Positions 3,475 through 60,016 are shown, counted from the first letter of the stretch. The stretch: 64,000 nucleotides of DNA from a virus (IMGVR_UViG_3300044653_000098:64001-128000); one strand, 5' to 3'. Notes: generated by a model from the letters alone, not told the origin. Numbers and translations: made by a program.

Positions 3475-3769
3475 CTGGCGCCTGGCCGGTAATAATGGCA
3501 GGGCGTGCCCCGGGGAGCCTGCGGAACGATGATCAGCGTCCTCGTTCCGGCCAGGACCGTTACCCCCCGGGGCCGCCCCGCCAGCGAAACGGAAGGCGGA
3601 GGCCCATGAACGTAGCTAGCAAGGTGCCGGAGCGGCCGCAGCCGCCAGCTGCACCGGGCGGATATCACCAGGAAGCTGCGCCTGATAGTGCGTGGCGGGT
3701 GATCGGGGGGCTTGCCACGATCGGGAGCAAGCGGTGCCGGGCAGGCGCGACGCGGAACAAGCGGGCGGG

Positions 3770-44229: not shown

Positions 44230-44417
44230 AAGACCGCAGCAAGATTGTCTACTGCACCATGGACAGCTCTCAGTGGCTGATCCTGATCCCGCCCGCAGGC
44301 TTGGTGTCCCCTCCGGTGATAACCCTGCATCAGTCATTTGTCGGGCCCGTGGAGTTCTACCACGCCTCGGCCTACAACATCCCGGTGCCCGACGACGCTA
44401 AGGCGGCCGCGAAATGA
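44226..44417 (+). CDS. Hypothetical protein
   Basis: Coupled small ORF. Confidence 0.5.
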   Translation: MKDRSKIVYCTMDSSQWLILIPPAGLVSPPVITLHQSFVGPVEFYHASAYNIPVPDDAKAAAK

Positions 44418-49704: not shown

Positions 49705-50661
49705 ATGAGAATCCTGGTGACCGGCGGGGCCGGCTTTATCGGGTCGGCCCTGGTTCGCCGGCTGGCAGGGGAAGATCATGAGGTCGTCGCGCTGGACGAC
49801 TGCTCCCGCGGGCAGTTCGAGCGCCTGACGGGGGTGCCCTGCCGCCGGATTCCCGGGGATGTCCGGGATGAGGACGCGGTCCTGGAGGGTATGCAGGGCT
49901 GCGATGCTGTGATTCACGCCGCGTACTTGCAGGGCACTCAGACGTTTTACGCCGAGCCCAGGCAGGTTCTCGACGTCGCACTGCGCGGGATCCTGAACGT
50001 CCTGTCGGCCTGTGAGAAGCGCGGGACTCCTGACCTGCTGCTCATCTCCAGCTCCGAGGCATACCAGGTTGCTCCCACGGTGCCGACGCCTGAGGAGATC
50101 CCGCTCGTCGTCCCCGATGTGCAGAACCCGCGGTACAGCTACGGGGGCGGGAAGATCTCCTCCGAGCTGGCTACTCTCGCCTGGCATCACGCCGGGGTGC
50201 TCGACCGCGCCATCATCGCCCGGCCGCACAACGTCGTTGGCCCGGACATGGGCCGCGAGCATGTGATCCCGGAGTTCGCCATCCGGATGGGCAAGCTCGT
50301 GCGCGAGTACCGCAGCGGGATCATCCCGTTCCCGATCCAGGGCACGGGCGAGGAGACGCGCAGCTTCTGCTACATAGATGACTGCGTGGAGCAGCTGTAC
50401 CGGCTGCTCATGCGTGCGCCGGAGGGCCCGAGCGTCTGGCACGTCGGGAACATGGACGAGCGCACGATAGCTGACGTCGCGCACGCTGTGGCTGCCTGCT
50501 ACGGCCGGGAGATCAAGGTCGTCCCCGGCAAGCTTCCCAAGGGCTCGCCCCCGCGGCGCCTGCCGGACACGGCCAAGATCGAGGCTCTCGGATATAAGGC
50601 CGTGGTTCCCTTTGATGAGGCTGTGCGGCGTTCCGTGGAGTGGTACCAGCACAATGGGTGA
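49705..50661 (+). CDS. NAD-dependent NDP-sugar epimerase/dehydratase
   Basis: TGGAGFIG, SSSEAY, YGGGK and TRSFCYIDD. Confidence 0.92.
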   Translation: MRILVTGGAGFIGSALVRRLAGEDHEVVALDDCSRGQFERLTGVPCRRIPGDVRDEDAVLEGMQGCDAVIHAAYLQGTQTFYAEPRQVLDVALRGILNVLSACEKRGTPDLLLISSSEAYQVAPTVPTPEEIPLVVPDVQNPRYSYGGGKISSELATLAWHHAGVLDRAIIARPHNVVGPDMGREHVIPEFAIRMGKLVREYRSGIIPFPIQGTGEETRSFCYIDDCVEQLYRLLMRAPEGPSVWHVGNMDERTIADVAHAVAACYGREIKVVPGKLPKGSPPRRLPDTAKIEALGYKAVVPFDEAVRRSVEWYQHNG

Positions 50662-51784
50662 GGTAACCGAGTGCGGGATCTGCGGCAGCCCGGAGCTGGA
50701 CCGCATCCTGGACATGGGTTTGCAGCCGCTGGCCGAGCGCGAGAGTGATCTGTACCCGCTGGCTCTGCTGAAGTGCTCGAACTGCACGCTGGTGCAGCTC
50801 AGTTACATCGTGGATCAGCAGGAGGTGTTCCCGCTCAACCACCCGTACGCCACCGGCAACACCAGGTTCCTGCGGGAGCACTTCGCTAAGCTGGCCGCCG
50901 AGCTGGCGGACCAGAGGCTGAAGCCCGGCGATCTGGCGGTCGACATAGGCGCCAACGACGGCACCCTGCTGGCTGCGATCGGGCTGGCAGCGCCGGGCGT
51001 GCGTCTGGCCGCGGTCGAGCCCACCAACCAGGCCCGCAAGTGCCGTGAGCGCGGCATCAGCACCTACCAGAAGTTCTTCACGCCCGCGGTGGCCGGCGAG
51101 ATCCTGCACGACCTCGGATGGGCCAAGGTCGTCATCGCCAGCAATGTGCTGGCTCACGTCCCGGACCCGCACGGGTTCGTGCACGGGGTCACCACGCTGC
51201 TGGACCCCGCTGGCGGGGTGTTCATTACCGAGAACCATGATTGGGCCAGCATCCTCAATGGTCTGCAGGTAGACACCATCTACCACGAGCATCTGAGGTA
51301 CTACTCTGTCGCGGCTCTGTCGCATCTGCTGGCCGTGCACGGCCTTGAGGTGGCCGGTGTCGAGCCGGTGCCGACACACGGGGGATCCCTGCGGGTGACC
51401 GCCCGCAAGACCAGAGGCTCGCTCAGGGACCGCTCCCGGGACGCCATGTACCGGCTGCGTAACCTGCTGGCCCAGGCAGCGGCTCGTGGCGCGGTCTACG
51501 GCATCGGAGCGGCGACCCGCGCGACGCCGCTGATCCACTATGCGGATATCGCCGGCTTTATCGACTGCGTCTGCGAGGTCTCCACCAGCGAGAAGATAGG
51601 AACGTGCATGCCGGGCACCTCTATCCCGGTGGTGGACGAGGCCAAGCTGGTGGCTGACCAGCCGCCGCACGCTCTGCTGTTCTCCTGGCACATCGCGGAC
51701 AGTCTGGTCCCCAAGCTCCGTGAGATGGGTTACCGTGGCAGGCTGATCGTCCCCCTCCCAGAGCCGAGGATCATAGATGGCTGA
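50654..51784 (+). CDS. NDP-hexose C-methyltransferase
   Basis: Zn site CGIC/CSNC, DIGANDG, NVLAH, DTIYHEH, THGGSLR and YGIGA. Confidence 0.92.
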   Translation: MGEVTECGICGSPELDRILDMGLQPLAERESDLYPLALLKCSNCTLVQLSYIVDQQEVFPLNHPYATGNTRFLREHFAKLAAELADQRLKPGDLAVDIGANDGTLLAAIGLAAPGVRLAAVEPTNQARKCRERGISTYQKFFTPAVAGEILHDLGWAKVVIASNVLAHVPDPHGFVHGVTTLLDPAGGVFITENHDWASILNGLQVDTIYHEHLRYYSVAALSHLLAVHGLEVAGVEPVPTHGGSLRVTARKTRGSLRDRSRDAMYRLRNLLAQAAARGAVYGIGAATRATPLIHYADIAGFIDCVCEVSTSEKIGTCMPGTSIPVVDEAKLVADQPPHALLFSWHIADSLVPKLREMGYRGRLIVPLPEPRIIDG

Positions 51785-52139
51785 CCGGTTCGAGGATCAC
51801 CGTGGCGTGATCCAGGACATCCTGCCCGGCCCGATCGACTGCGTCACCCGGATCTTCACCCGGGCCGGGATGGTTCGCGGGAACCATATTCACCGCGAGA
51901 CCCACCAGTGGACCTACATCATCAGCGGGACCATGGAGACGGTCCTGTCGGATGATGTAGGGCGTGTGCACACGGATACCCGCATGACGGGCGACCTGTT
52001 CCACGAGCCTCCGGGGATGGCGCACGCCTGGAGAGCTGTGTCCGATGTCTGGGTGCTGGTTTTTACCCGTGGGCCGCGCTCGGGCGAGAACTACGAGAGC
52101 GACGTCCAGCGCCTGGCACCGGAGGAACACCTGCTGTGA
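51777..52139 (+). CDS. Cupin (NDP-sugar isomerase/epimerase-like)
   Basis: EDHRG, RGNHIH....Q and PPGMAHA. Confidence 0.85.
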   Translation: MADRFEDHRGVIQDILPGPIDCVTRIFTRAGMVRGNHIHRETHQWTYIISGTMETVLSDDVGRVHTDTRMTGDLFHEPPGMAHAWRAVSDVWVLVFTRGPRSGENYESDVQRLAPEEHLL

Positions 52140-52960
52140 GCGACTTCAAGGACATGTGCGTCATCGTGATGGCGTGGCGCAGGCCCTACTACCTGAAGCA
52201 GACCCTGGAGTCCTGGGCAGCGGCCGACGGCATCAAGGACATCCGCAGCTTCATCGTCGGGCTCGGAGAGCACCCGCGCAAAGGCGAGAACCTGGCTGTC
52301 ATAGCCGAGGCTGAGCAGGCGATGGGGCGCCCGATCTGGATCCTGGAGGACAGCGACCGGGCCAAGGCCAGCCCGGCCATGCACCGCCCTATGGCCGAGG
52401 CGTGCAACGCCGCCTGGGGCAGCCACGTCGAGGGCGTGCCGGACGCCGGGTGGGTGATCCTGTCGGAGGAGGACAACACCGTCGCTGATGACGTTCTGCA
52501 CTACAACAGCTGGTGCCGCGATACCTTCCAGGACCGTAAGGATGTGCTGCTGGTCTGCTCCCACGACATCCCCTGGGTGGAGGGCTGGTTCGGGCCCGCG
52601 CCGGCTGAGCGTGAGCCGCTGCGCGCCGACGGCGACCCCAACCCCGAGATCGTCCGGCTCAAGCTCGGGTTCGACTCCCACGCCTGGGGCACGTGGCGCG
52701 ACCGGTGGGAGCAGATCCTGGAGCCCACCTGGGACTATGAGTGTAACTCCGGCGGCCCCGACAACTCCGGGTGCGACTGGAACATCGCCACCCGGGTCAT
52801 GCCCAACGGCGGGTATCTAGCGGCCTGCCCCGATGCCTCCCGCTCGTGCAACATCGGCCGCGATGAGGGCGTCTACATGCGCCCGGAGAACTGGCACGTC
52901 AATGAGGCGTTCAAGCCGGTTTACGGGCAGCAGAAGTACCGGCTGGTCGAGGGCTCCTGA
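52136..52960 (+). CDS. GT-A fold glycosyltransferase
   Basis: VMAWRRP.YL..TL.S, ILSEED and AWGTWRDRW. Confidence 0.75.
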   Translation: MSDFKDMCVIVMAWRRPYYLKQTLESWAAADGIKDIRSFIVGLGEHPRKGENLAVIAEAEQAMGRPIWILEDSDRAKASPAMHRPMAEACNAAWGSHVEGVPDAGWVILSEEDNTVADDVLHYNSWCRDTFQDRKDVLLVCSHDIPWVEGWFGPAPAEREPLRADGDPNPEIVRLKLGFDSHAWGTWRDRWEQILEPTWDYECNSGGPDNSGCDWNIATRVMPNGGYLAACPDASRSCNIGRDEGVYMRPENWHVNEAFKPVYGQQKYRLVEGS

Positions 52961-53583
52961 TGGCTGACATCTCCGTCCTGCTGCCGACACGCAACCGGCC
53001 AGAGCTGCTGTGCCGCAGCCTCAACTCACTGTTTAACCTGGCAGATGAGCCGGACCAGATTGAGGTCTTGCTGGCGGAGGACCCGGATGCGATCTACGAC
53101 CCCAAGTACGGCAACGTCCTCATCTGGGTGGCTCCGGAGCGCTACGGCAGCGCCCGGATGCACGAGTATTACAACGCCCTGGCCCGGCTGGCTCACGCTC
53201 CGCGCCTTATGATCTGGAATGATGATGCGCTTATGTGCTCCTGGGGGTGGGACACTGCTGTGCGCAGTGCGCCCCCGGACGGCTGCCTGTGGCTGGACCA
53301 CATGGGCACCGGTCCTGATCACTGCAACATGTTCCCGGTCTGGCCCAAAGCCTGGACTGACCTGCTGGGTCACATCGCTGACGGCTCTCCCCGCGTGGAT
53401 ACCTGGATCCAGGAAGTGGCCGAGATCATGGGCCGGCAGGTGAAGGTGCCGGTCCAGCTCCGGCACATCAGCCCGGACGATCAAACGTGGCGAGAGGGGC
53501 GGGAGTATTTCCTGCCCGAGTTCCATGCGCTGCGGCATCTGCGCGAGCGTGACGCCGAAATCCTGCTGGCTAGCGGATTCTAG
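52960..53583 (+). CDS. GT2-like glycosyltransferase
   Basis: ISVLLPTRNRP and IWNDD. Confidence 0.8.
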   Translation: MADISVLLPTRNRPELLCRSLNSLFNLADEPDQIEVLLAEDPDAIYDPKYGNVLIWVAPERYGSARMHEYYNALARLAHAPRLMIWNDDALMCSWGWDTAVRSAPPDGCLWLDHMGTGPDHCNMFPVWPKAWTDLLGHIADGSPRVDTWIQEVAEIMGRQVKVPVQLRHISPDDQTWREGREYFLPEFHALRHLRERDAEILLASGF

Positions 53584-53591
53584 GAGCTGAG

Positions 53592-54374
53592 ATGGCCCGG
53601 CGCTGGCATCCCATGATGTTCTATAACGAGCTGGACTGGCTGGAATGCCAGCTCTGGGAGACCTACGAGGTGATGTACCGCTACATCATTGTCGAGGCCA
53701 CCCTGGATCACCAGGGCCATCCCAAGCCGCTGTACTACGACGACAGCAAATCGCGCTTCGATCAGTGGCGAGACAAGATAATTCACGTCATTGTGCGCGA
53801 CCTGCCGACGGCGCAGACGACGGCCAACCACTGGGAGAGGGAACGGCCGCAGCGCGACGCGGCTATGCCCGTCCTCTTCGAGCAGGGCAAGCCGGAAGAC
53901 CTGATCTTCAACCTGGATGTGGACGAGATCCCGAGCCAGACCGCTCTGGCTGCCGAGACCCCGGAGATCAAGGGCCTGCAGCTGAGCAACCACCTGTTCG
54001 CGGTCGACTGGTACTCCGAGATGAACGTCATGGGATCGCTCGTGCCGGTGAACTGCCTGGAGCGGTCCATGCAGCCCTCCGAGTTGCCAGGCGCGGTCCG
54101 CGGCGGTCTGTCCTGGATCCGGGAGCACCGCTACGGCTACCCGGTCATCCACAACGCCGGCTGGCACTTCAGCTGGGTCGGCGGGGTGGACGAGTACATC
54201 TCCAAGGACCAGCGCACCCCGCACACCGAGCACCACGATGAGCGAATGCGCCCCGGCGGACCGGAATACTCCTACTATGAGGGAGCCGGGCAGACGCCTG
54301 TCGATGTTGGCCCGGACTGGCCGCGGTACATCCGGGAGCGCCGTTGCCCTGCCAGCTGGTTCCGGCCCCGGTAG
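53592..54374 (+). CDS. GT17-like glycosyltransferase
   Basis: FYNELDWL, IIVEA...G.PKPL, WERE..QRD, DVDEIP and GWHFSW. Confidence 0.8.
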   Translation: MARRWHPMMFYNELDWLECQLWETYEVMYRYIIVEATLDHQGHPKPLYYDDSKSRFDQWRDKIIHVIVRDLPTAQTTANHWERERPQRDAAMPVLFEQGKPEDLIFNLDVDEIPSQTALAAETPEIKGLQLSNHLFAVDWYSEMNVMGSLVPVNCLERSMQPSELPGAVRGGLSWIREHRYGYPVIHNAGWHFSWVGGVDEYISKDQRTPHTEHHDERMRPGGPEYSYYEGAGQTPVDVGPDWPRYIRERRCPASWFRPR

Positions 54375-54382
54375 GAGTCCTC

Positions 54383-55048
54383 TTGCTGATCGCGATGCCG
54401 GTAGACAGCCACTCCCCCGGTGATCTCGCTCACTCCCTAGATAGCTGGAGCCGGGTGCGGCCGCCGGGCGGCGAGCCTCTGGAGTTCATCTTCGCGGTCG
54501 AGCCTGACCCCGACATCGTCCCGGAGGTCATCAACCGCTACGCCGGGACGTTCAGCTGGAAGGTGGACATCTTCCAGAACGAGAACCGGCTGGGCCCGGA
54601 CCTCAACCCCGCCCACGTGCTGGAGCTGGCGTTCCGGCGCTCGCCTCAGGTGGTGTTCGCTGACGCCAGCGCGATCGTGTCCACCGACGTTGCCGAGTAC
54701 CTGAGCTGGGCCCTGGAGTGGTTCGAGCACGATGCTCAGTGCCTGGCGGTCTGCACCTTCGAGGAGCACGGCACCTCGCTCAACCCGTCTCTCGCGCGCA
54801 CCGACTTCGCGTTCACCCCGGCCTGCTTCGGGATGTGGGGAAACCGGTGGGACCGGATGCGGCACTGGGATTTCAAGGCCACGGATGACTTCCGGTGGAC
54901 CGACTACGTCCAGCAGCGCCACCTCATGCCCACCGGCCGGTATGTGATCAAGCCCTGGCAGTCCCGCTCGCAGCCGATCCGCGGACCGCGGTCCGCCAGC
55001 TTCGAGCAGGAGGTCGAGCCTCAGCCGACCTACAGCCTGACGGCCTGA
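54383..55048 (+). CDS. Glycosyltransferase-like protein (degenerate paralog of 52136)
   Basis: FGMWGNRW and P..SRS motifs shared with 52136; DxD not evident. Confidence 0.6.
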   Translation: MLIAMPVDSHSPGDLAHSLDSWSRVRPPGGEPLEFIFAVEPDPDIVPEVINRYAGTFSWKVDIFQNENRLGPDLNPAHVLELAFRRSPQVVFADASAIVSTDVAEYLSWALEWFEHDAQCLAVCTFEEHGTSLNPSLARTDFAFTPACFGMWGNRWDRMRHWDFKATDDFRWTDYVQQRHLMPTGRYVIKPWQSRSQPIRGPRSASFEQEVEPQPTYSLTA

Positions 55049-55342: not shown

Positions 55343-55426
55343 GCCCCCGTAGCCCAAAACACCAAGAGGCAGAGGCGCCGCTTTAAAACCGGTCGAGTGT
55401 GGGTTCGAGCCCCACCGGGGGCACCA
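55343..55426 (+). tRNA. tRNA-Leu(TAA), enlarged D-loop
   Basis: GCCCCCG/CGGGGGC acceptor, loop TTTAAAA, TTCGAG T-loop, encoded CCA. Confidence 0.75.
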
Positions 55427-55459
55427 GATGGAAGTTCTGCAAGATGGTCCGGAAAAAGA

Positions 55460-55489
55460 GTTGACACGGGTCTACCGGCATCGTAAGGT
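55460..55489 (+). promoter_or_regulatory. sigma70 promoter of the tRNA array with overlapping operator
   Basis: TTGACA(55461)-N17-TAAGGT(55484); ATG 6 nt downstream (leaderless). Confidence 0.85.
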
Positions 55490-55495
55490 GGGTAC

Positions 55496-55594
55496 ATGAT
55501 GCAACGCAGGTACTCAGAGCAGCGGAATCAGGATGGGCATTTTGCCATCCCGTGCCCCGCCATGCTGGGGACCAGCGAGGTGGCTTCTGGGTAG
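55496..55594 (+). CDS. Leader peptide (32 aa) MMQRRYSEQRNQDGHFAIPCPAMLGTSEVASG
   Basis: ATG at the predicted +1; the 3' end overlaps the antiterminator strand. Confidence 0.7.
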   Translation: MMQRRYSEQRNQDGHFAIPCPAMLGTSEVASG

Positions 55595-55654
55595 AGGAAG
55601 ATCAAGCTCGGAAGCCGCCCGCAGGGACAGAAGCCCTCGCGGGCGGTTTGCGTT
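55575..55654 (+). terminator. Attenuator: antiterminator (55575-55592/55606-55622) versus terminator (55612-55622/55639-55649)
   Basis: Mutually exclusive pairings sharing AAGCCGCCCGC; the terminator ends in TTTGCGTT. Confidence 0.7.
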
Positions 55655-55666
55655 ACAGCTGAACAT

Positions 55667-55737
55667 GGGGAGCAGGCGACGGCTGCCGGCGGGATTCCAA
55701 ACCCCGCGACGAGTGGGTTCGACTCCTACGCACCCTG
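55667..55737 (+). tRNA. tRNA-Trp(CCA), atypical D-arm
   Basis: Loop TTCCAAA; T-arm GTGGG-TTCGACT-CCTAC. Confidence 0.65.
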
Positions 55738-55738
55738 C

Positions 55739-55834
55739 GGAGCACCACCCTGAAGGCTGGGGTGAACGTGCCAGCAGATTGATAACTCAACAGCGTGAGC
55801 ATCGCCCAGGGCGCCATCCCTGGGCACAAGCTCC
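55739..55834 (+). ncRNA. Unassigned multibranch structured RNA
   Basis: GGAGC/GCTCC closing stem enclosing hairpins CACCCT/GGGGTG, TTGA/TCAA and GCCCAGGG/CCCTGGGC. Confidence 0.5.
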
Positions 55835-55896
55835 CCCGTCCGCGCCTGCGCTCAGGTCTTCCTGGGTCACCATCGGGCACGGCCGGGGGAGATCAT

Positions 55897-55968
55897 GGGG
55901 ATGAGAAGCTGAGGTAGCGACCGCGCCCTGCAAGCGTTGGTGACTCGGTTCGATTCCGAGCATCTCCA
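55897..55968 (+). tRNA. tRNA-Ala(TGC), C33, atypical D-arm
   Basis: GGGGATG/CATCTCC-A with G3:U70; loop CCTGCAA. Confidence 0.7.
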
Positions 55969-56047
55969 CGAGACCGCCGCTTGGGGAACAGCTGGGATGG
56001 CCTGGTACCGGGCGTTACCCCCAGACCTGAAACGGAGCGGCGGCAGA

Positions 56048-56122
56048 CTGGGTATAGCTCAGGTTGGTCAGAGCGCGCGGTCCGGGGCCGCGAGGCCGCT
56101 GGTTCAAATCCAGCTACTCAGA
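56048..56122 (+). tRNA. tRNA-Pro(CGG), C33
   Basis: CGCGG-TCCGGGG-CCGCG. Confidence 0.85.
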
Positions 56123-56124
56123 CC

Positions 56125-56254
56125 GGGGGGAGATGCGGGTTCGAGTCCCGCCCTGTCCGTGAAAACTCTCCGCGGTGGCCGATCTGCAGGCGGCTGGCCG
56201 GCCAGGGCCCTGGTCAGGAGAGGGACAGGTAGTCCAATTGGCAGGACGCCCCCT
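56125..56254 (+). ncRNA. Circularly permuted tRNA-like RNA (3' half before 5' half)
   Basis: GGGGG-AGAT-T arm-CCTGTCC-G (56125-56159), then GGACAGG-TA-D arm-G-CCCCC (56223-56254). Confidence 0.85.
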
Positions 56255-56259
56255 ACATT

Positions 56260-56379
56260 TTCTGGTGCGGCTTACCACGATCCGGCTGGGGTTCGGGAGA
56301 AGAACGTCCGGGAGGTCGAGCGCAATACGCGGGCGCAGTTCCGCGCAAACGGCGGCCGGATGCTGTGGGAGCACCAGAA
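56260..56379 (+). ncRNA. Unassigned long-stem structured RNA
   Basis: Nested stems TTCTGGTGC/GCACCAGAA, CCACG/TGTGG and ATCCGGCTG/CGGCCGGAT. Confidence 0.55.
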
Positions 56380-56382
56380 CAA

Positions 56383-56457
56383 CGGGATGTCGCGTAAGGG
56401 TTAGCGCGCCTGGTTTGGGACCAGGCAGTCAAGGTTCGAGTCCTTGTATCCCGACCA
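56383..56457 (+). tRNA. tRNA-Pro(TGG)
   Basis: CCTGG-TTTGGGA-CCAGG; encoded CCA. Confidence 0.9.
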
Positions 56458-56524
56458 GCGGCCAGGATGTTCACCGTGTCCTGGTGCAGCGGAGGCTCGT
56501 TAGGGAGCACCCAACGGTGACGGC

Positions 56525-56597
56525 GGGTCTGTAGCTCAGACGGGAGAGCGGTCCCCTGAAAAGGGACAGGTGGAGGATTCGATCGCCTCCGGGCCCA
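56525..56597 (+). tRNA. tRNA-Phe(GAA)
   Basis: GTCCC-CTGAAAA-GGGAC. Confidence 0.85.
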
Positions 56598-56615
56598 CGC
56601 TGTAGCAGGTAGCCC

Positions 56616-56687
56616 GCCGCACTAACACAATGGCTAGTGTGTCTGTCTTCCAAGCAGAGAATGCGAGTTCGATTCTCGCGTGCGGCT
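56616..56687 (+). tRNA. tRNA-Gly(TCC)
   Basis: TCTGT-CTTCCAA-GCAGA; U73. Confidence 0.9.
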
Positions 56688-56792
56688 CGGTGACGAGCAG
56701 AGCTGAAACCTCTGTGATCGCGCAAGTGGCTGGCAGGCCACGGCCGGGCAGGCTCTGGGGGACTGCCATCTCGCAGGGGTGCCCGGTTCTGA

Positions 56793-56865
56793 GTGCCGCT
56801 AGCACAACGGTTACTGCACCTGACTCTTAATCAGGGGGTTCTCGGTTCGAGTCCGAGGCGGCGCA
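56793..56865 (+). tRNA. tRNA-Lys(CTT)
   Basis: CCTGA-CTCTTAA-TCAGG. Confidence 0.9.
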
Positions 56866-56866
56866 C

Positions 56867-56942
56867 GGGCGAGTACGTCCAACTGGCAGAGCGGCCGGCC
56901 TCAAAATCCGCGCGGTTGCGGGTTCGACTCCCGCCTCGCCTA
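56867..56942 (+). tRNA. tRNA-Leu(CAA), short variable arm
   Basis: Loop CTCAAAA, imperfect anticodon stem, canonical T-arm. Confidence 0.75.
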
Positions 56943-56947
56943 CACGA

Positions 56948-57021
56948 TGGAGCATGGTGGTAATTCGGTATCCCACTGGGCCCTGAACCCAGGGATCCAG
57001 GTTCGAGTCCTGGTGCTCCAG
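56948..57021 (+). tRNA. tRNA-Gln(CTG), C33
   Basis: CTGGG-CCCTGAA-CCCAG; U1-A72, G73. Confidence 0.85.
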
Positions 57022-57023
57022 CT

Positions 57024-57116
57024 AGTCCTGGCCCGGCTTTCCCTGAATTGACAGGCGACCCCGAAGCGTGACGGCGCATAAGGGGACGGGCACGACGGTG
57101 CGGTCCGGCCGGGACT
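57024..57116 (+). ncRNA. Unassigned multibranch structured RNA
   Basis: AGTCCTGGCC/GGCCGGGACT closing stem with three internal hairpins, two carrying GACG loops. Confidence 0.5.
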
Positions 57117-57120
57117 TCAT

Positions 57121-57195
57121 GCCTCCGTAGCTCAATGGTGGAGCAGTGCCCCCGTAAGGCACAGGCCGCAGGGTCAGTACCTGCCGGAGGCTCCA
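57121..57195 (+). tRNA. tRNA-Thr(CGT), C33, non-canonical T-loop
   Basis: GTGCC-CCCGTAA-GGCAC; T-loop GTCAGTA; encoded CCA. Confidence 0.8.
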
Positions 57196-57196
57196 T

Positions 57197-57285
57197 GCGC
57201 TCGTGGCGGAATAGGTATACGCGCTAGCCCGAGATGCTAGTGCTCCGCGAGGGGCGTGCGGGTTCGACTCCCGCCGAGCGCACCA
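57197..57285 (+). tRNA. tRNA-Leu(GAG), C33
   Basis: CTAGC-CCGAGAT-GCTAG, long variable arm, encoded CCA. Confidence 0.85.
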
Positions 57286-57286
57286 C

Positions 57287-57355
57287 GCCGCCGCGCACGG
57301 CTTGCGGCCCGGCTCCTGTAAAGCTGGAGGTCCGGATCGGCACCGGACGGCGGCT
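57287..57355 (+). tRNA. tRNA-Thr(TGT), C33, degenerate D/T loops
   Basis: GCCGCCG/CGGCGGC-T acceptor; CGGCT-CCTGTAA-AGCTG. Confidence 0.65.
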
Positions 57356-57359
57356 CTGC

Positions 57360-57433
57360 TCCGGGATCGGGTTGCCGGCATCCCGACGCGGCTTTGGACC
57401 GCGGTCACGCTGGTTCGAGTCCAGCTCCCGGAA
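57360..57433 (+). tRNA. tRNA-Gln(TTG)
   Basis: CGCGG-CTTTGGA-CCGCG. Confidence 0.8.
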
Positions 57434-57437
57434 CGAT

Positions 57438-57509
57438 GCCTGCCTAGTGATAACGGCAGCACGCGTCCTTGGTAAGGACGTAGACGGAGTTCAATTCTCC
57501 GGGCAGGCT
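57438..57509 (+). tRNA. tRNA-Thr(GGT)
   Basis: CGTCC-TTGGTAA-GGACG. Confidence 0.9.
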
Positions 57510-57513
57510 CTGT

Positions 57514-57586
57514 GTGGACGTGGCGAAGCTGGTATCGCATCTGCTTGCCAAGCAGAAGATCGCGGGTTCGATCCCCGTCGTCCACT
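57514..57586 (+). tRNA. tRNA-Gly(GCC)
   Basis: TCTGC-TTGCCAA-GCAGA. Confidence 0.9.
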
Positions 57587-57683
57587 CTCCGGCTGCGGTG
57601 TTCACCGTGCCAATGCGAAGGGCCCGACAGGTTCGGTAACCCGGATGGATAAGTCTGCTAGGCCAGCAGGCAAACGGTTGAAT

Positions 57684-57767
57684 GTCCCGGTGGCGTAATT
57701 GGTAGCCGCGCACGGCTCAGACCCGTGTGCCTTAACGGGCGTGAGGGTTCGACCCCCTCCTGGGACA
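57684..57767 (+). tRNA. tRNA-Leu(CAG)
   Basis: CACGG-CTCAGAC-CCGTG, long variable arm. Confidence 0.9.
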
Positions 57768-57773
57768 CGATCG

Positions 57774-57853
57774 GAACTCCCTCCCGCCGCGGTTCGCGAA
57801 CGCGGTGATCAGGAGAGCTAAGGGTCTGGCCCCGCGCCCGGCCGGAGGAGTTC
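57774..57853 (+). ncRNA. Unassigned structured RNA
   Basis: GAACTCC/GGAGTTC closing stem; CGCCGCG/CGCGGTG and TCTGGCC/GGCCGGA hairpins. Confidence 0.5.
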
Positions 57854-57887
57854 ACAGTCAATGCGCATGGCAAGCGGGGCGTGACAT

Positions 57888-57961
57888 GGTCTGCGACCAG
57901 CTGGAGGTTGGAGGCGGCCTGCAAAGCCGTCAGCAGCGGGGTTCGATTCCCCGGCGGGCCT
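57888..57961 (+). tRNA. tRNA-Cys(GCA)
   Basis: GCGGC-CTGCAAA-GCCGT; U73. Confidence 0.8.
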
Positions 57962-57965
57962 CTAA

Positions 57966-58163
57966 CAGGCTCCGTCTGCGTGGATTTCGCAGTTCGGGCC
58001 GTTCCCCGGCGGGATGGCATTGGCGGAGGCTGCGGCCGCGCTCAGGAGGGTGCCGAGTGCAATACCCGCGGCGAGAAGGGCTGCTAGAAGTCGGTAGCGC
58101 ATGGTCTTCACCTTTCTGCTGGTAGCTGTCACGGTACGCCTAAGTGATTGTTCTGCACAGGCA
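57966..58163 (+). ncRNA. Unassigned ~200-nt structured RNA
   Basis: GATGGC/GCTGTC and TGGCGGAG/TTTCTGCTG stems enclosing GCCGCG/CGCGGC and GAAGG/TCTTC branches. Confidence 0.45.
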
Positions 58164-58164
58164 T

Positions 58165-58249
58165 GGAGCGGTGGCCGAGCGGCCTATGGCGGTGTCCTGC
58201 TAAGGCACTCACCGGAAACGGTGCGCGGGTTCAAATCCCGCTCGCTCCT
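58165..58249 (+). tRNA. tRNA-Ser(GCT)
   Basis: GTGTC-CTGCTAA-GGCAC, long variable arm. Confidence 0.9.
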
Positions 58250-58252
58250 CTT

Positions 58253-58337
58253 GGAAGGTAGCGCCGAGGATGGCGAACTGGTCCCGAAAACCAGGCCGGG
58301 GTGAGTAGCCCCGAGGGTTCGATTCCTTTACCTTCCT
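58253..58337 (+). tRNA. tRNA-Ser(CGA), C33
   Basis: CTGGT-CCCGAAA-ACCAG, long variable arm. Confidence 0.8.
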
Positions 58338-58341
58338 CTGA

Positions 58342-58415
58342 CCGCCCCGGCTCAGCCGGTGAAGAGGCCCGTCTGATAAGCGGGTAGTCGCATGGTTCAA
58401 CTCCATGGGGGCGGA
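58342..58415 (+). tRNA. tRNA-Ile(GAT)
   Basis: CCCGT-CTGATAA-GCGGG. Confidence 0.8.
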
Positions 58416-58416
58416 C

Positions 58417-58491
58417 TGGCCAGTAGCACAAAGGTAAGTGCACCCGTCTTATAAGCGGGCGATACGGAGTCAAGACCCGGCTGGCCTACCA
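58417..58491 (+). tRNA. tRNA-Ile(TAT), aberrant T-arm
   Basis: CCCGT-CTTATAA-GCGGG; encoded CCA. Confidence 0.7.
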
Positions 58492-58564
58492 GCTCCCCGC
58501 GCCCGACTGGACGGGCACCGGACTTTTAATCCGGACTGACTGGGTTCGATTCCTTGGGGGAGCA
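58492..58564 (+). tRNA. tRNA-Lys(TTT)
   Basis: CCGGA-CTTTTAA-TCCGG. Confidence 0.85.
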
Positions 58565-58569
58565 CGCAA

Positions 58570-58641
58570 GCGTCGCTGGTGTAAAGGAAGCGCGCTCGCC
58601 TTCTAAGCGAGATGGTCTCAGTTCGATTCTGGGGCGACGCA
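58570..58641 (+). tRNA. tRNA-Arg(TCT)
   Basis: CTCGC-CTTCTAA-GCGAG. Confidence 0.9.
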
Positions 58642-58642
58642 C

Positions 58643-58713
58643 GGCTCGTTAGGTTAACGGCAGACCGCCTGGTTCTCAGCCAGGGAGCAGGGGTTCAATT
58701 CCCCTACGAGCTA
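58643..58713 (+). tRNA. tRNA-Glu(CTC)
   Basis: CCTGG-TTCTCAG-CCAGG. Confidence 0.9.
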
Positions 58714-58717
58714 CTTT

Positions 58718-58795
58718 GCCGCTGTTACTCTGATGGTAAGGGGTAGCCGGGTTTTCACCCCGGACACGACGCGGGTTCGAGTCCCGTCAGCGGCT
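58718..58795 (+). tRNA. tRNA-Glu(TTC)
   Basis: CCGGG-TTTTCAC-CCCGG. Confidence 0.8.
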
Positions 58796-58796
58796 C

Positions 58797-58870
58797 TGCG
58801 GACAGCAGCACCGGTCGTGCTGAACGGTCTCATAAGCCGAGATAGCTGGGTTCGACTCCCAGGTCCGCAA
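58797..58870 (+). tRNA. tRNA-Met(CAT) (elongator or Ile2 type)
   Basis: CGGT-CTCATAA-GCCG; TGCGGAC/GTCCGCA acceptor. Confidence 0.75.
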
Positions 58871-58883
58871 CTGTTCAATCTGA

Positions 58884-58957
58884 TCCGGCGTAGCTCAGTC
58901 TGGTAGAGCAGCCGCCCGTTAAGCGGAAGCGCGCAGGTTCGAGCCCTGCCGCCGGAG
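58884..58957 (+). tRNA. tRNA-Asn(GTT), C33
   Basis: CCGC-CCGTTAA-GCGG; U1-A72, G73. Confidence 0.85.
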
Positions 58958-58969
58958 CGCAGTAATCAT

Positions 58970-59042
58970 GGTTCTGTAGCTCAGTGGTCAGAGCGTCCGC
59001 CTGTCGAGCGGAGGGCCGCGGGTTCGACTCCCGTCAGGACCG
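58970..59042 (+). tRNA. tRNA-Asp(GTC)
   Basis: TCCGC-CTGTCGA-GCGGA; G73. Confidence 0.9.
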
Positions 59043-59053
59043 CGCATGATAAA

Positions 59054-59128
59054 GGGTGCTTAGCTCAGCGGAAGAGCAGCAGCACGACACGCTGAAGGCC
59101 GCAGGTTCGATCCCTGCAGCGCCCACCA
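59054..59128 (+). tRNA. tRNA-Val(GAC), C33
   Basis: CAGC-ACGACAC-GCTG; encoded CCA. Confidence 0.85.
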
Positions 59129-59216
59129 TGCGCGTTACGCCGGAGAACGGCCGCCCAATACGCGCAGCAGGGGACTGTCGTACAGGCGGAGGAAGTCGGC
59201 TTGGCGGTCCCAACTA

Positions 59217-59288
59217 GCGTCCATCGTTCAACGGATAGGACGGCAGGCTACGGACCTGCTGATGGGAGTTCGAGTCTTCCTGGACGCA
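59217..59288 (+). tRNA. tRNA-Arg(ACG)
   Basis: GCAGG-CTACGGA-CCTGC. Confidence 0.9.
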
Positions 59289-59289
59289 C

Positions 59290-59361
59290 GGGCCGTTAGC
59301 TCAGCGGCAGAGCGGCGCCCCCACACGGCGCGCAGCGGAGGTTCGAGTCCTCCATGGCCCA
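59290..59361 (+). tRNA. tRNA-Val(CAC), C33
   Basis: GCGCC-CCCACAC-GGCGC. Confidence 0.85.
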
Positions 59362-59363
59362 CT

Positions 59364-59434
59364 GAGGGCGAACCGCATGGCGCGGAGGCTGGTTGTGAGC
59401 CAGTCAGCAGCGGGTTCGAATCCCGTCGTCCTCC
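59364..59434 (+). tRNA. tRNA-His(GTG), no encoded G-1
   Basis: GCTGG-TTGTGAG-CCAGT; C73. Confidence 0.75.
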
Positions 59435-59520
59435 CTTTCCCCCGGTCGTAGGGCCGCACCCGGCAGGGTGATCCGGAGAGCCTGTGTCCATCAGGGCGGG
59501 GATCAAAAACTCCGGGCTAT

Positions 59521-59601
59521 GGCGGAGTGACCCGAGATGGCATGGGAGCGGTCTGTAAAACCGTCGCTTCGGCACGGCTGGTTCGATTCCAGCGTCCGCC
59601 A
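59521..59601 (+). tRNA. tRNA-Tyr(GTA)
   Basis: GCGGT-CTGTAAA-ACCGT, GC-TTCG-GC variable arm. Confidence 0.85.
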
Positions 59602-59656
59602 CTCTCCGGGTGCAGGAGCCACACGGCTTGGCCGCCGTGCCTGCCCCGGAGCGTAA

Positions 59657-59728
59657 GCGCCTATCGTTCAGTGGATAGGATCGCGGCCCCCGAAGCCGCA
59701 GACGCTGGTTCGAGTCCAGCTGGGCGCA
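59657..59728 (+). tRNA. tRNA-Arg(CCG), C33
   Basis: GCGGC-CCCCGAA-GCCGC. Confidence 0.85.
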
Positions 59729-59729
59729 C

Positions 59730-59804
59730 TGGCCTGAAGCTCAATGGACGAGCGGTCGCCCCCTAAGCGAACGGCTGCGGGTTCGAGTCCCGTCAGGCCG
59801 GCCA
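59730..59804 (+). tRNA. tRNA-Arg(CCT), C33
   Basis: TCGC-CCCCTAA-GCGA; encoded CCA. Confidence 0.8.
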
Positions 59805-60016
59805 CATCGATGCTCACGCTGCGAGTTGTCCTGGTATCCGGTTCGGCGTTTCTTGCCCGTCGTCCTATCCGGCCCGGCCCCGTCCAAGCGCTCCCGCGGA
59901 GATAGCTGTTGTGGCGGGGCCCGGTCGTATGATAGAGTTGCTTTCGTAACCGCCCGGACCTGCCTATCAGTGCGACGCAGCCGGGCGGACCGCTTTTCCG
60001 GGCCGATGAGCCGGCC

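What the first reader, a model, noticed from the sequence alone, without database searches (positions are those of the whole stretch)
55739..59950. About a dozen structured non-tRNA RNAs interleaved in the tRNA array
Seen: spacers of 50-200 nt with self-closing stems at 55739-55834, 55831-55891, 55974-56043, 56260-56379, 56688-56792, 57024-57116, 57587-57683, 57774-57853, 57966-58163, 59129-59216, 59441-59516 and 59864-59935. Other tRNAs are only 0-10 nt apart. CGAG(C/T)GCAATAC recurs at 56317 and 58054, and CAATACGCG at 56323 and 59156. Inference: tRNA processing would release these as discrete small RNAs, possibly decoys or antitoxin mimics co-induced with the tRNAs. I could not assign any to a known family.
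Basis: partly seen in the sequence, partly recalled or inferred. Interest (0 to 1): 0.7.

Follow-up and report, generated by a model that had tools for sequence, protein, structure and literature searches.

The report
Mixed spacers in phage tRNA operon
The gaps between the tRNA genes of this soil phage are not a dozen new RNA genes but a mixture: a few folded RNA elements that look selected or tRNA-derived (one is a tRNA with its two halves swapped), a small protein gene on the other strand, a terminator, and several fast-changing fillers.

Summary
The window lies in a 141.7-kb, 67% GC soil phage. One stereotyped phage promoter (55461) heads an operon of about 35 tRNAs that ends at a hairpin (59864-59935). 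The 12 intervals exist as described, but they are heterogeneous.

- **57966-58163:** a minus-strand gene for a 46-aa signal-peptide protein, not an RNA.
- **59864-59935:** the likely operon terminator.
- **56260-56379:** the tail of a 258-nt element whose first half is a perfect circularly permuted tRNA (T arm, closed acceptor stem, D arm).
- **56689-56792 and 57023-57120:** conserved in the only relative found. Every substitution keeps the predicted pairs (P=0.001 and P=0.06).
- **55739-55830:** 100% conserved.
- **55831-55891 and 55974-56043:** strong hairpins, replaced by unrelated sequence in the relative (55831-55891 by another strong hairpin).
- **Four intervals** (57587-, 57774-, 59129-, 59441-): fold no better than shuffles and are replaced or deleted in close variants.

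The recurring motifs are at chance level, and no Rfam family matches. tRNA-sized spacers fold into cloverleaf shapes about ten times more often than shuffles, which suggests tRNA-derived relics or mimics.

The decoy or antitoxin role is untested. This scan has noted structured spacers in other phage tRNA arrays before.

The parts
55461..55489 (+). Promoter of the tRNA operon (TTGACACGGGTCTACC, then TAAGGT)
   Evidence: One of 11 genome copies of TTGACACGKGTCTACC-N8-9-TANNNT. Conserved in L002.
55497..55655 (+). Leader: a leaderless 32-codon frame (55497-55594) followed by a 12-bp GC hairpin and TTTGCGTT (about 55612-55655)
   Evidence: Read from the sequence. 87% identical in L002 with the frame kept. 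Its role as an attenuator is inference.
55668..55738 (+). Degenerate tRNA-Trp(CCA)-like gene with an aberrant D arm
   Evidence: Scores 23.5 bits only with the tRNA-Sec model. L002 has a canonical tRNA-Trp at the same place.
55739..55830 (+). 92-nt element, 100% identical in the sister phage. Holds the left arm (55786-55804) of a 19-bp long-range helix.
   Evidence: identity; z -2.8; inverted repeat, -32 kcal/mol.
55831..55891 (+). Strong hairpin. The interior is replaced by another hairpin in L002, while the base CTCCCC/GGGGAG is kept.
   Evidence: z -5.2. The L002 analogue at 3496-3590 has z -4.9. Alignment.
55897..55970 (+). Non-canonical tRNA-like gene, 100% conserved in L002
   Evidence: Rfam tRNA score 18.9 bits. 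7-bp acceptor stem and canonical T arm read from the sequence. Identity.
55971..56047 (+). Closed hairpin spacer, variable between relatives
   Evidence: z -2.5, closure p=0.015. Not homologous in L002. Soil variants join 55969 directly to 56383.
56125..56253 (+). Circularly permuted tRNA: 3' half (56125-56159), 63-nt linker hairpin that closes the acceptor stem (56160-56222), 5' half (56223-56253)
   Evidence: The MFE is a permuted cloverleaf. The de-permuted sequence is called a canonical tRNA by ARAGORN in both phages. U8, A14, A15:U48, G18G19 and the TTCGA T loop are all present (and reading). 94% identical in L002.
56254..56382 (+). The outer stem TTCTGGTGC/GCACCAGAA is kept, but the inner fold is uncertain.
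   Evidence: z -2.0. 5 pairs of the window's MFE are broken in L002. An alternative consensus fold fits both sequences.
56689..56792 (+). Conserved three-hairpin spacer RNA
   Evidence: 15 substitutions against L002 and none breaks a pair of the window's MFE (null mean 4.3, P=0.001). One compensatory pair, and a hairpin loop that is fully replaced. Near-identical in soil variants.
57023..57120 (+). Conserved cloverleaf-shaped spacer RNA closed by a 14-bp stem
   Evidence: z -3.25, closure p=0.04. 7 substitutions and 0 broken pairs, P=0.06. Cloverleaf topology occurs in 4.7% of shuffles.
   Evidence: Cloverleaf MFE, seen in 0.7% of shuffles. Two compensatory pairs against L002. Missed by ARAGORN and Rfam.
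57588..57683 (+). Variable filler spacer, no excess structure
   Evidence: z +0.06. Not homologous in L002. Replaced by 101 other letters in a soil variant.
57769..57887 (+). Variable filler spacer
   Evidence: z 0.0. L002 has an unrelated 41-nt hairpin here.
57962..58102 (-). Gene for a 46-aa secreted or membrane peptide (signal peptide ending ASA|NA), preceded by GAAAGGTGAAG
   Evidence: Against L002: 9 synonymous and 4 non-synonymous codon changes, and 11 of 15 differences at the third codon position. The plus strand has z +0.8 and no pair conservation.
58417..58488 (+). tRNA-Ile(TAT) missed by ARAGORN
   Evidence: Rfam tRNA score 43.7 bits. Called in L002.
59129..59216 (+). Variable spacer made of two hairpins
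   Evidence: z -1.7. Not homologous in L002, which has a cloverleaf-shaped 84-nt spacer here.
59436..59520 (+). Variable spacer, absent from close variants
   Evidence: z -0.3. Variants join 59435 to 59527 with 7 other letters.
59521..59601 (+). tRNA-Tyr(GTA) missed by ARAGORN
   Evidence: Rfam tRNA score 35 bits. Called in L002.
59605..59656 (+).
   Evidence: z -3.2. L002 has an unrelated 74-nt cloverleaf at this place, z -3.75.
59808..59827 (+). Right arm of the long-range helix, 3 nt after the last tRNA
59864..59935 (+). GC-rich hairpin at the end of the conserved block: probable operon terminator
   Evidence: z -3.8. 100% identical in L002 up to 59929, after which the two phages diverge until the next gene. 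No U tract.

Best explanation
The stretch is one phage tRNA operon: a stereotyped promoter at 55461, a leader with a hairpin, about 35 tRNAs, and an end hairpin at 59864-59935. Its long spacers are a patchwork produced by fast gain, loss and decay of cassettes at tRNA junctions.

Host RNase P and RNase Z type cuts at the flanking tRNAs would release each spacer as a fragment. That step is inferred, not shown.

A minority of the fragments are structured RNAs kept by selection on shape rather than on sequence:
- the three-hairpin 56689-56792;
- the stalk-closed cloverleaf 57023-57120;
- the circularly permuted tRNA 56125-56253 with its tail;
- the hairpin at 55831-55891.

Several of these, and several spacers of the sister phage, are tRNA-shaped. 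The likeliest origin is therefore tRNA genes that lost decoding features. They persist as tRNA mimics or as compact, nuclease-resistant modules that do not disturb the folding of their neighbours.

The remaining intervals are not RNA genes. One is a minus-strand signal-peptide gene, one is the terminator, and four are unstructured fillers that differ between near-identical phages.
For: **Operon frame**
- The promoter family has 11 copies in the genome and only one lies ahead of the array.
- 30 tRNAs are called by ARAGORN, two more by Rfam, and there are three weak tRNA-like genes.

**Heterogeneity**
- z-scores range from +0.8 to -5.2, against a coding baseline of -0.34.
- The minus-strand gene shows third-position substitution bias.

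**Selection on shape**
- 56689-56792: 0 of 15 substitutions break a pair (P=0.001).
- 57023-57120: 0 of 7 substitutions break a pair (P=0.06).
- Four conserved domains combined: P=0.003.
- At 55831-55891 one hairpin is replaced by another hairpin; at 59605-59656 a hairpin is replaced by a 74-nt cloverleaf-shaped spacer. L002's non-homologous spacers have mean z -1.8.

**tRNA-derived shapes**
- The permuted tRNA is confirmed by its MFE and by ARAGORN after de-permutation.
- Cloverleaf topology occurs in 5 of 14 tRNA-sized spacers, against 0.43 expected from shuffles.
- 57286-57359 has a Thr-like anticodon loop and two compensatory pairs.

**Turnover**
- Spacers are replaced or deleted between the window, L002 and soil variants, while the flanking tRNAs stay 90-100% identical.
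Against: - Only one alignable relative exists, at 85-100% identity. Covariation rests on about 40 substitutions, and only three truly compensatory pairs were found.
- 100% identity of 55739-55830 may reflect recent recombination rather than constraint.
- Most junctions (18) work with 0-12 nt, so hairpins are not needed for processing. The insulator idea is therefore weak.
- No RNA ends or abundances are known. The metatranscriptome contigs that match could be DNA carry-over and bridge spacer-tRNA junctions.
- The distant cultured relative Magritte has spacers of similar length with no excess structure (mean z -0.56).
Confidence: 0.65

Rival explanations
1. One reading: most of the twelve spacers are dedicated, stable small RNAs (decoys, sponges or antitoxin mimics) made together with the tRNAs.
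For: - The spacers are co-transcribed with the tRNAs and bounded by tRNA processing sites.
- There are precedents. T4 RNAC and RNAD come from its tRNA region (PMC3014915). The leuZ 3'ETS tRNA-spacer sponge in E. coli is cited from my own knowledge; the search only listed papers that mention it, and none was read.
Against: - Five of the 12 intervals fold like shuffles.
- One interval is a protein gene and one is a terminator.
- Six to seven spacers are non-homologous, replaced or deleted in phages whose tRNAs are nearly identical.
- The intervals share no motif above chance.
- No copies occur elsewhere in the genome.
- There is no Rfam match.
- No toxin or defence partner was identified.
Confidence: 0.12
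2. All of it is neutral debris: decayed tRNA genes and GC-rich filler whose apparent folds are by-products of 65% GC and of chosen boundaries, with no element under selection.
For: - Turnover between relatives is fast.
- tRNA fragments occur in spacers, for example a lone T arm in L002 at 7123-7158.
- 12% of coding windows also reach z<-2.
- Magritte's spacers are unstructured.
Against: - The pair-preserving substitution pattern (P=0.001 for one spacer, 0.003 combined).
- A hairpin is replaced by another hairpin at the same place.
- The permuted tRNA keeps every tertiary-contact nucleotide in both phages.
- Cloverleaf shapes are enriched about ten-fold.
Confidence: 0.18
3. The structured spacers are cis-acting processing or stability signals of the polycistronic precursor. 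These would include RNase III or RNase E sites, exonuclease barriers, and a leader-trailer helix that loops out the whole array, as in rRNA operons.
For: - A 19-bp helix (-32 kcal/mol) joins 55786-55804 to 59808-59827 and brackets the array exactly. Both arms are 100% conserved.
- Selection acts on shape only, with free loop sequence, in 56689-56792.
Against: - A perfect 14-nt core arises in 6% of shuffles.
- Most junctions have no hairpin.
- The phage encodes no RNase III.
- No covariation is possible, because both arms are identical in L002.
Confidence: 0.05

Closest known systems
T4 RNAC and RNAD (species 1 and 2 RNAs) from the T4 tRNA region
   Same: Non-tRNA small RNAs encoded among phage tRNA genes, co-transcribed with them, and of unknown role (PMC3014915; PMC9697503).
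   Different: There is no sequence or Rfam relation. The T4 RNAs are shown to accumulate, whereas here nothing is known about accumulation. Here the elements differ even between sister phages.
YrlA, the tRNA-like Y RNA of bacteria and mycobacteriophages (Rfam RF02553; PMC4201824)
   Same: The 56125-56253 module has the YrlA order: T arm, acceptor-like stem closed by a loop, D arm. Like M. smegmatis YrlA it has a 7-bp acceptor stem, the feature that lets RNase P cut and CCA be added.
   Different: There is no GNCGAAN0-1G motif. The phage has no Ro60/TROVE gene. RF02553 gives no hit on the element. The linker is 63 nt long, and the 5' end abuts a tRNA-Pro.
tRNA transcript spacers acting as sRNA sponges in E. 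coli (3'ETS of leuZ, ITS of the metZWV operon)
   Same: These are by-products of tRNA operon processing that have a function of their own. This comparison rests on my own knowledge; the search only listed papers that mention it.
   Different: Those spacers act by base pairing with Hfq-bound sRNAs. No target, no Hfq-type site and no host are known here.
Permuted and split tRNA genes (Cyanidioschyzon merolae, some archaea) and two-piece tmRNA (Rfam RF04321)
   Same: The 3' half is encoded upstream of the 5' half of the same cloverleaf.
   Different: Those are rejoined or carry an anticodon or a tag frame. Here the break is in the anticodon loop and no loop is left. ARAGORN finds no tmRNA, and no frame in 56254-56382 has a stop (reading). 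RF04321 gave only a 23-bit hit elsewhere, at 55944-56010.

Membership tests
tRNA (Rfam RF00005) | Score of 29 bits or more against the tRNA covariance model, or an ARAGORN call | tested here: not met
   None of the 12 intervals is hit at E<=10. Two neighbouring gaps are real tRNAs (58417-58488 at 43.7 bits; 59521-59601 at 35 bits).
YrlA (Rfam RF02553) | tRNA-like domain in the order T arm, acceptor-like stem-loop, D arm | tested here: met
   56125-56253: permuted cloverleaf MFE. The de-permuted sequence is a canonical tRNA for ARAGORN.
YrlA (Rfam RF02553) | GNCGAAN0-1G motif near the 5' end (probable Ro60 contact) | tested here: not met
   A regular-expression scan of 56040-56390 and of the L002 copy found no match.
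YrlA (Rfam RF02553) | Encoded within about 4 kb of a Ro60/Rsr (TROVE) gene on the same strand | tested here: not met
   PF05731 has no match in the whole 141.7-kb record, and the control genomes do match.
YrlA (Rfam RF02553) | Gathering score of 69 bits | tested here: not met
   RF02553 gives only matches of 25 bits or less, all on tRNA-tRNA junctions and none on 56125-56382.
Two-piece (permuted) tmRNA | Tag reading frame with a stop codon downstream of the 5' acceptor piece, and detection by ARAGORN or RF04321 | tested here: not met
   ARAGORN finds no tmRNA in the window or the genome. No stop codon occurs in any frame of 56254-56382 (reading). The RF04321 hit is 23 bits and lies elsewhere.
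Stable small RNAs of phage tRNA clusters (T4 RNAC/RNAD type) | Discrete, stably accumulating RNA species processed from the tRNA transcript | not testable with these tools
   Only assembled contigs of one soil metatranscriptome match. These show no ends and no levels.
Intrinsic terminator (59864-59935) | GC-rich hairpin followed by a U tract | tested here: inconclusive
   The hairpin has z -3.8, but no run of T follows it directly and the consensus scan does not list it. Its position at the end of the conserved block supports the role.
Protein-coding gene (57962-58102, minus strand) | Ribosome-binding site, open frame kept in a relative, and substitutions biased to third codon positions | tested here: met
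   GAAAGGTGAAG lies before the ATG. L002 has the orthologous 51-aa frame. There are 9 synonymous against 4 non-synonymous codon changes, and 11 of 15 differences are at position 3.

The most novel reading that the evidence does not exclude
The phage makes a Ro-independent, circularly permuted, anticodon-less tRNA mimic (56125-56382). RNase P and RNase Z would cut it into a two-piece tRNA-shaped RNA carrying a 129-nt tail. Together with the shape-conserved spacers 56689-56792 and 57023-57120, it would act in trans on host tRNA-binding factors such as modification or processing enzymes, acceptor-end toxins, or defence nucleases. That would make the tRNA operon a combined supply-and-decoy device.
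Probability: 0.15. Interest if true: 0.75.

Novelty: new variant of a known kind. Interest (0 to 1): 0.42.

Why it matters
Phage tRNA arrays are usually annotated as tRNAs plus empty gaps. Here the gaps hold several things:
- a permuted tRNA with an intact tertiary core;
- shape-conserved RNAs;
- tRNA-shaped relics;
- a hidden peptide gene.

They also turn over between near-identical phages. If even the few conserved elements accumulate as RNAs, phage tRNA operons would be a source of tRNA mimics and small RNAs, as hinted by T4 RNAC/RNAD and by YrlA. In that case the array's role would go beyond codon supply or replacement of cleaved tRNAs. If they do not accumulate, the locus is still a clear picture of how tRNA genes are born, permuted and decay in a phage.

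Tried and rejected
**Searches for more relatives (needed for covariation)**
- Megablast against phages and plasmids found nothing.
- Distant blastn hit only tRNAs.
- IMG/VR searches with three flanking proteins and one DNA pattern gave only the one sister record. They also gave three fragments, which hold no tRNA.
- The single metagenome pattern scan gave a chance 23-nt match.
- The first genome contigs pattern found nothing. The second hit unrelated tRNAs (Leu, Ala and others) in scattered phyla, so the source tRNA of the permuted element stays unknown.

**Other negative checks**
- Spacers of the distant cultured relative Magritte are not homologous.
- No spacer recurs elsewhere in the genome.
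- No further small frame with a ribosome-binding site was found in the spacers.
- The phage has no Ro60, RtcB, CCA-adding enzyme or RNase III.

**Sequencing reads**
- One soil metatranscriptome has contigs identical to 56146-56367, 56703-56883 and 57142-57429.
- Contigs show neither ends, strand nor level, and DNA carry-over cannot be excluded.
- I do not count the uncovered parts of that run as evidence either way.

**Ideas dropped**
- A tmRNA reading of 56125-56382: there is no stop codon and no ARAGORN call.
- A MITE-like reading of the closing stems: the stems are all different and there are no repeats.
- A leader-trailer helix as a general feature: it is absent in Magritte, and its core arises in 6% of shuffles.

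Full report
**Setting**

The window is bases 64001-128000 of a 141,724-bp IMG/VR virus record judged complete. It is about 67% GC. Its nearest cultured relative is Microbacterium phage Magritte, with 38% identity in the DnaB helicase. Parts of the stretch occur in many soil metagenomes.

ARAGORN tRNAs on the plus strand between 56048 and 59804. Rfam adds tRNA-Ile(TAT) at 58417-58488 and tRNA-Tyr at 59521-59601. It also gives weak tRNA-like hits at 55352-55423, 55668-55735 and 55899-55968. No non-tRNA family reaches its threshold.

A 16-nt promoter box, TTGACACGKGTCTACC followed by TANNNT, occurs 11 times in the genome. Exactly one copy lies ahead of the array, at 55461, and none lies inside it. 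Downstream of it come a leaderless 32-codon frame and a strong hairpin with TTTGCGTT. The array therefore looks like one transcription unit.

**The observation**

The twelve intervals are real spacers, and 18 other junctions are 0-12 nt.
- With neutral tRNA-to-tRNA boundaries, 5 of 13 spacers reach z<-2 and the mean is -1.34.
- For comparison, 60 coding windows of the same phage have mean -0.34 (12% below -2), and the tRNAs have mean -2.2.

So there is a modest but real excess of structure, carried by a minority of spacers.

End-to-end closure beats shuffles at p<0.05 in only two spacers. Among 2.3 kb of spacers, however, about 20 shared 9-mers are expected by chance, and no word of 12 or more is shared except one inverted repeat.

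**The only relative**

Protein and pattern searches of IMG/VR gave one sister phage, L002. Its array has the same tRNAs at 85-100% identity but rearranged spacers.

Conserved in L002:
- 55427-55667 (87%)
- 55739-55830 (100%)
- 56125-56382 (94%)
- 56712-56788 (95%)
- 57023-57120 (94%)
- 57999-58157 (85%)
- 59805-59929 (97%)

Not homologous in L002: 55971-56047, 56458-56524, 57588-57683, 57769-57887, 59129-59216, 59436-59520 and 59605-59656.

Contigs of soil variants tell the same story. One carries 56556-57290 almost unchanged, but has other sequence of similar length in place of 57291-57359 and 57578-57681. Others join 55969 to 56383, and 59435 to 59527.

**What each interval is**

1. *57966-58163* is a protein gene on the minus strand (57962-58102).
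   - It has a ribosome-binding site and an N-terminal signal peptide ending ASA|NA.
   - L002 has an orthologous frame.
   - Differences from L002 are 9 synonymous against 4 non-synonymous codons, and 11 of 15 fall at third positions.
   - The plus strand folds no better than shuffles, and its pairs are not kept.
2. *59864-59935* is a strong hairpin (z -3.8). It ends the block that the two phages share and lies before the next gene. It is most likely the operon terminator, although no U tract follows.
3. *56260-56379* is the tail of a 258-nt element that fills the whole gap 56125-56382.
   - The element's first 129 nt are a circularly permuted tRNA. In order: anticodon-stem 3' strand, variable loop, T arm, acceptor 3' strand and discriminator (56125-56159); a 63-nt hairpin that closes the acceptor stem; then acceptor 5' strand, D arm and anticodon-stem 5' strand (56223-56253).
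   - The MFE fold gives exactly this.
   - When the halves are put in normal order, ARAGORN calls a canonical tRNA in both phages.
   - U8, A14, the A15:U48 pair, G18G19 and the TTCGA T loop are all in place (and reading).
   - The three substitutions in its stems keep pairing.
   - For the tail, the outer stem is unchanged. But 5 pairs of the window's MFE break in L002, so the inner fold is unsettled.
4. *56689-56792* forms three hairpins.
   - Of 15 differences from L002, none breaks a pair of the window's own MFE (null mean 4.3, P=0.001).
   - One pair changed on both sides, and one hairpin loop is entirely replaced.
5. *57023-57120* is a four-way junction closed by a 14-bp stem. It has z -3.25, and 7 differences break no pair (P=0.06).
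6. *55739-55830* is 100% identical in L002, while the tRNA-Trp-like gene beside it has diverged strongly. I cannot tell constraint from recent exchange.
   - It holds the left arm of a helix (a 14-nt perfect core extending to 19 bp, -32 kcal/mol). The right arm starts 3 nt after the last tRNA.
   - A perfect core of this length appears in 6% of shuffles.
7. *55831-55891* (z -5.2) is replaced in L002 by a different, longer hairpin (z -4.9) on the same base pairs. *55974-56043* (z -2.8) is replaced by unrelated sequence and is missing from some variants.
8. *57587-57683, 57774-57853, 59129-59216 and 59441-59516* fold like shuffles, are not conserved, and are replaced or deleted in close variants.

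**A common thread**

L002's non-homologous spacers are also structured (mean z -1.8, with 8 of 14 below -2).

Among tRNA-sized spacers of both phages, 5 of 14 have a cloverleaf-topology MFE, where shuffles predict 0.43 in total. One of them, 57286-57359, has a Thr(UGU)-like anticodon loop with C33 and two compensatory pairs against L002. L002's 7669-7742 stands where the window has tRNA-Arg(CCG). Lone tRNA pieces also occur.

I therefore read many spacers as tRNA genes that lost their decoding features. Some still appear to be under selection for shape, and others are decaying or already replaced.

Magritte's array has spacers of similar length, small frames and an HNH gene. Its spacers show no excess structure and no homology, so this is a lineage feature, not a rule.

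**Mechanism**

Shown here:
- one promoter;
- tRNA-bounded spacers;
- shape-preserving substitutions in two or three elements;
- a permuted tRNA with an intact core.

Inferred:
- Since only about 5 of the 30 called tRNAs encode CCA and the phage has no CCA enzyme or RNase III, host RNase Z, RNase P and CCA enzyme process the transcript and would free the spacers.
- Closed, GC-rich ones should resist exonucleases.
- The permuted tRNA should be cut at its own acceptor stem, as M. smegmatis YrlA is (PMC4201824).

What the freed RNAs do is unknown. I found no partner gene. There is no Ro60 and no RtcB, and no Ro-binding motif.

**Comparison and novelty**

- The closest known kinds are T4 RNAC/RNAD (PMC3014915) and YrlA.
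- The element fails three of four YrlA membership features, so it resembles YrlA in topology only.
- It is not a tmRNA.
- Earlier notes of this scan report structured or stalk-closed RNAs in other phage tRNA arrays. Another first-stage note on this same genome reports the permuted tRNA. I re-derived the latter independently.
- I rate the whole finding as a new variant of a known kind, of moderate interest. The evidence base is thin: two genomes and no RNA data.

Noticed in passing
55461-55655: A copy of the phage's 11-fold repeated promoter (TTGACACGKGTCTACC...TANNNT) is followed by a leaderless 32-codon frame and a strong hairpin with a T-rich tail, just ahead of the tRNAs. This may be a leader or attenuator for the array, or a separate ~150-nt RNA. 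Both the frame and the hairpin are kept in L002.
   Followed up: partly
56048-59804: 10 of the 30 ARAGORN-called tRNAs have C instead of the near-invariant U at position 33 of the anticodon loop: Pro-cgg, Gln-ctg, Thr-cgt, Leu-gag, Ser-cga, Asn, Val-gac, Val-cac, Arg-ccg and Arg-cct.
   Followed up: partly
55786-55804 and 59808-59827: An inverted repeat brackets the array. It has a 14-nt perfect core, extends to 19 bp, and gives a duplex of -32 kcal/mol. The core 14-mer occurs only at these two sites in the genome, and both arms are 100% conserved in L002. It could be a leader-trailer processing helix. A perfect core of this length arises in 6% of shuffles.
   Followed up: partly
55352-55426: A tRNA-like gene with a 7-bp acceptor stem, a canonical T arm, encoded CCA and a TAA anticodon-like loop lies upstream of the array promoter. 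It is missed by ARAGORN. L002 has a 93-nt version that ARAGORN calls with a 4-nt anticodon.
   Followed up: no
whole array: No tRNA-Ala was found by ARAGORN or Rfam in the window's array, although nearly every other amino acid is covered. Magritte's array does have tRNA-Ala.
   Followed up: no
49705-55048: Directly upstream of the array lies a sugar-modification block: an NAD-dependent epimerase/dehydratase, a C-methyltransferase and glycosyltransferase-like proteins. A 983-aa radical SAM protein lies at 44414-47365.
   Followed up: no
56468-56478 and 57599-57609: The 11-mer TGTTCACCGTG occurs only twice in the genome. Both copies lie about 10 nt after a tRNA 3' end, in two otherwise unrelated variable spacers. 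About one such match is expected by chance.
   Followed up: no
L002:5519-5553, 6547-6617, 7123-7158, 7391-7434: The sister phage has extra hairpins, a cloverleaf-shaped insert and a lone T-arm fragment at tRNA junctions where the window has only 0-11 nt. This shows very recent gain or loss exactly at tRNA borders.
   Followed up: partly
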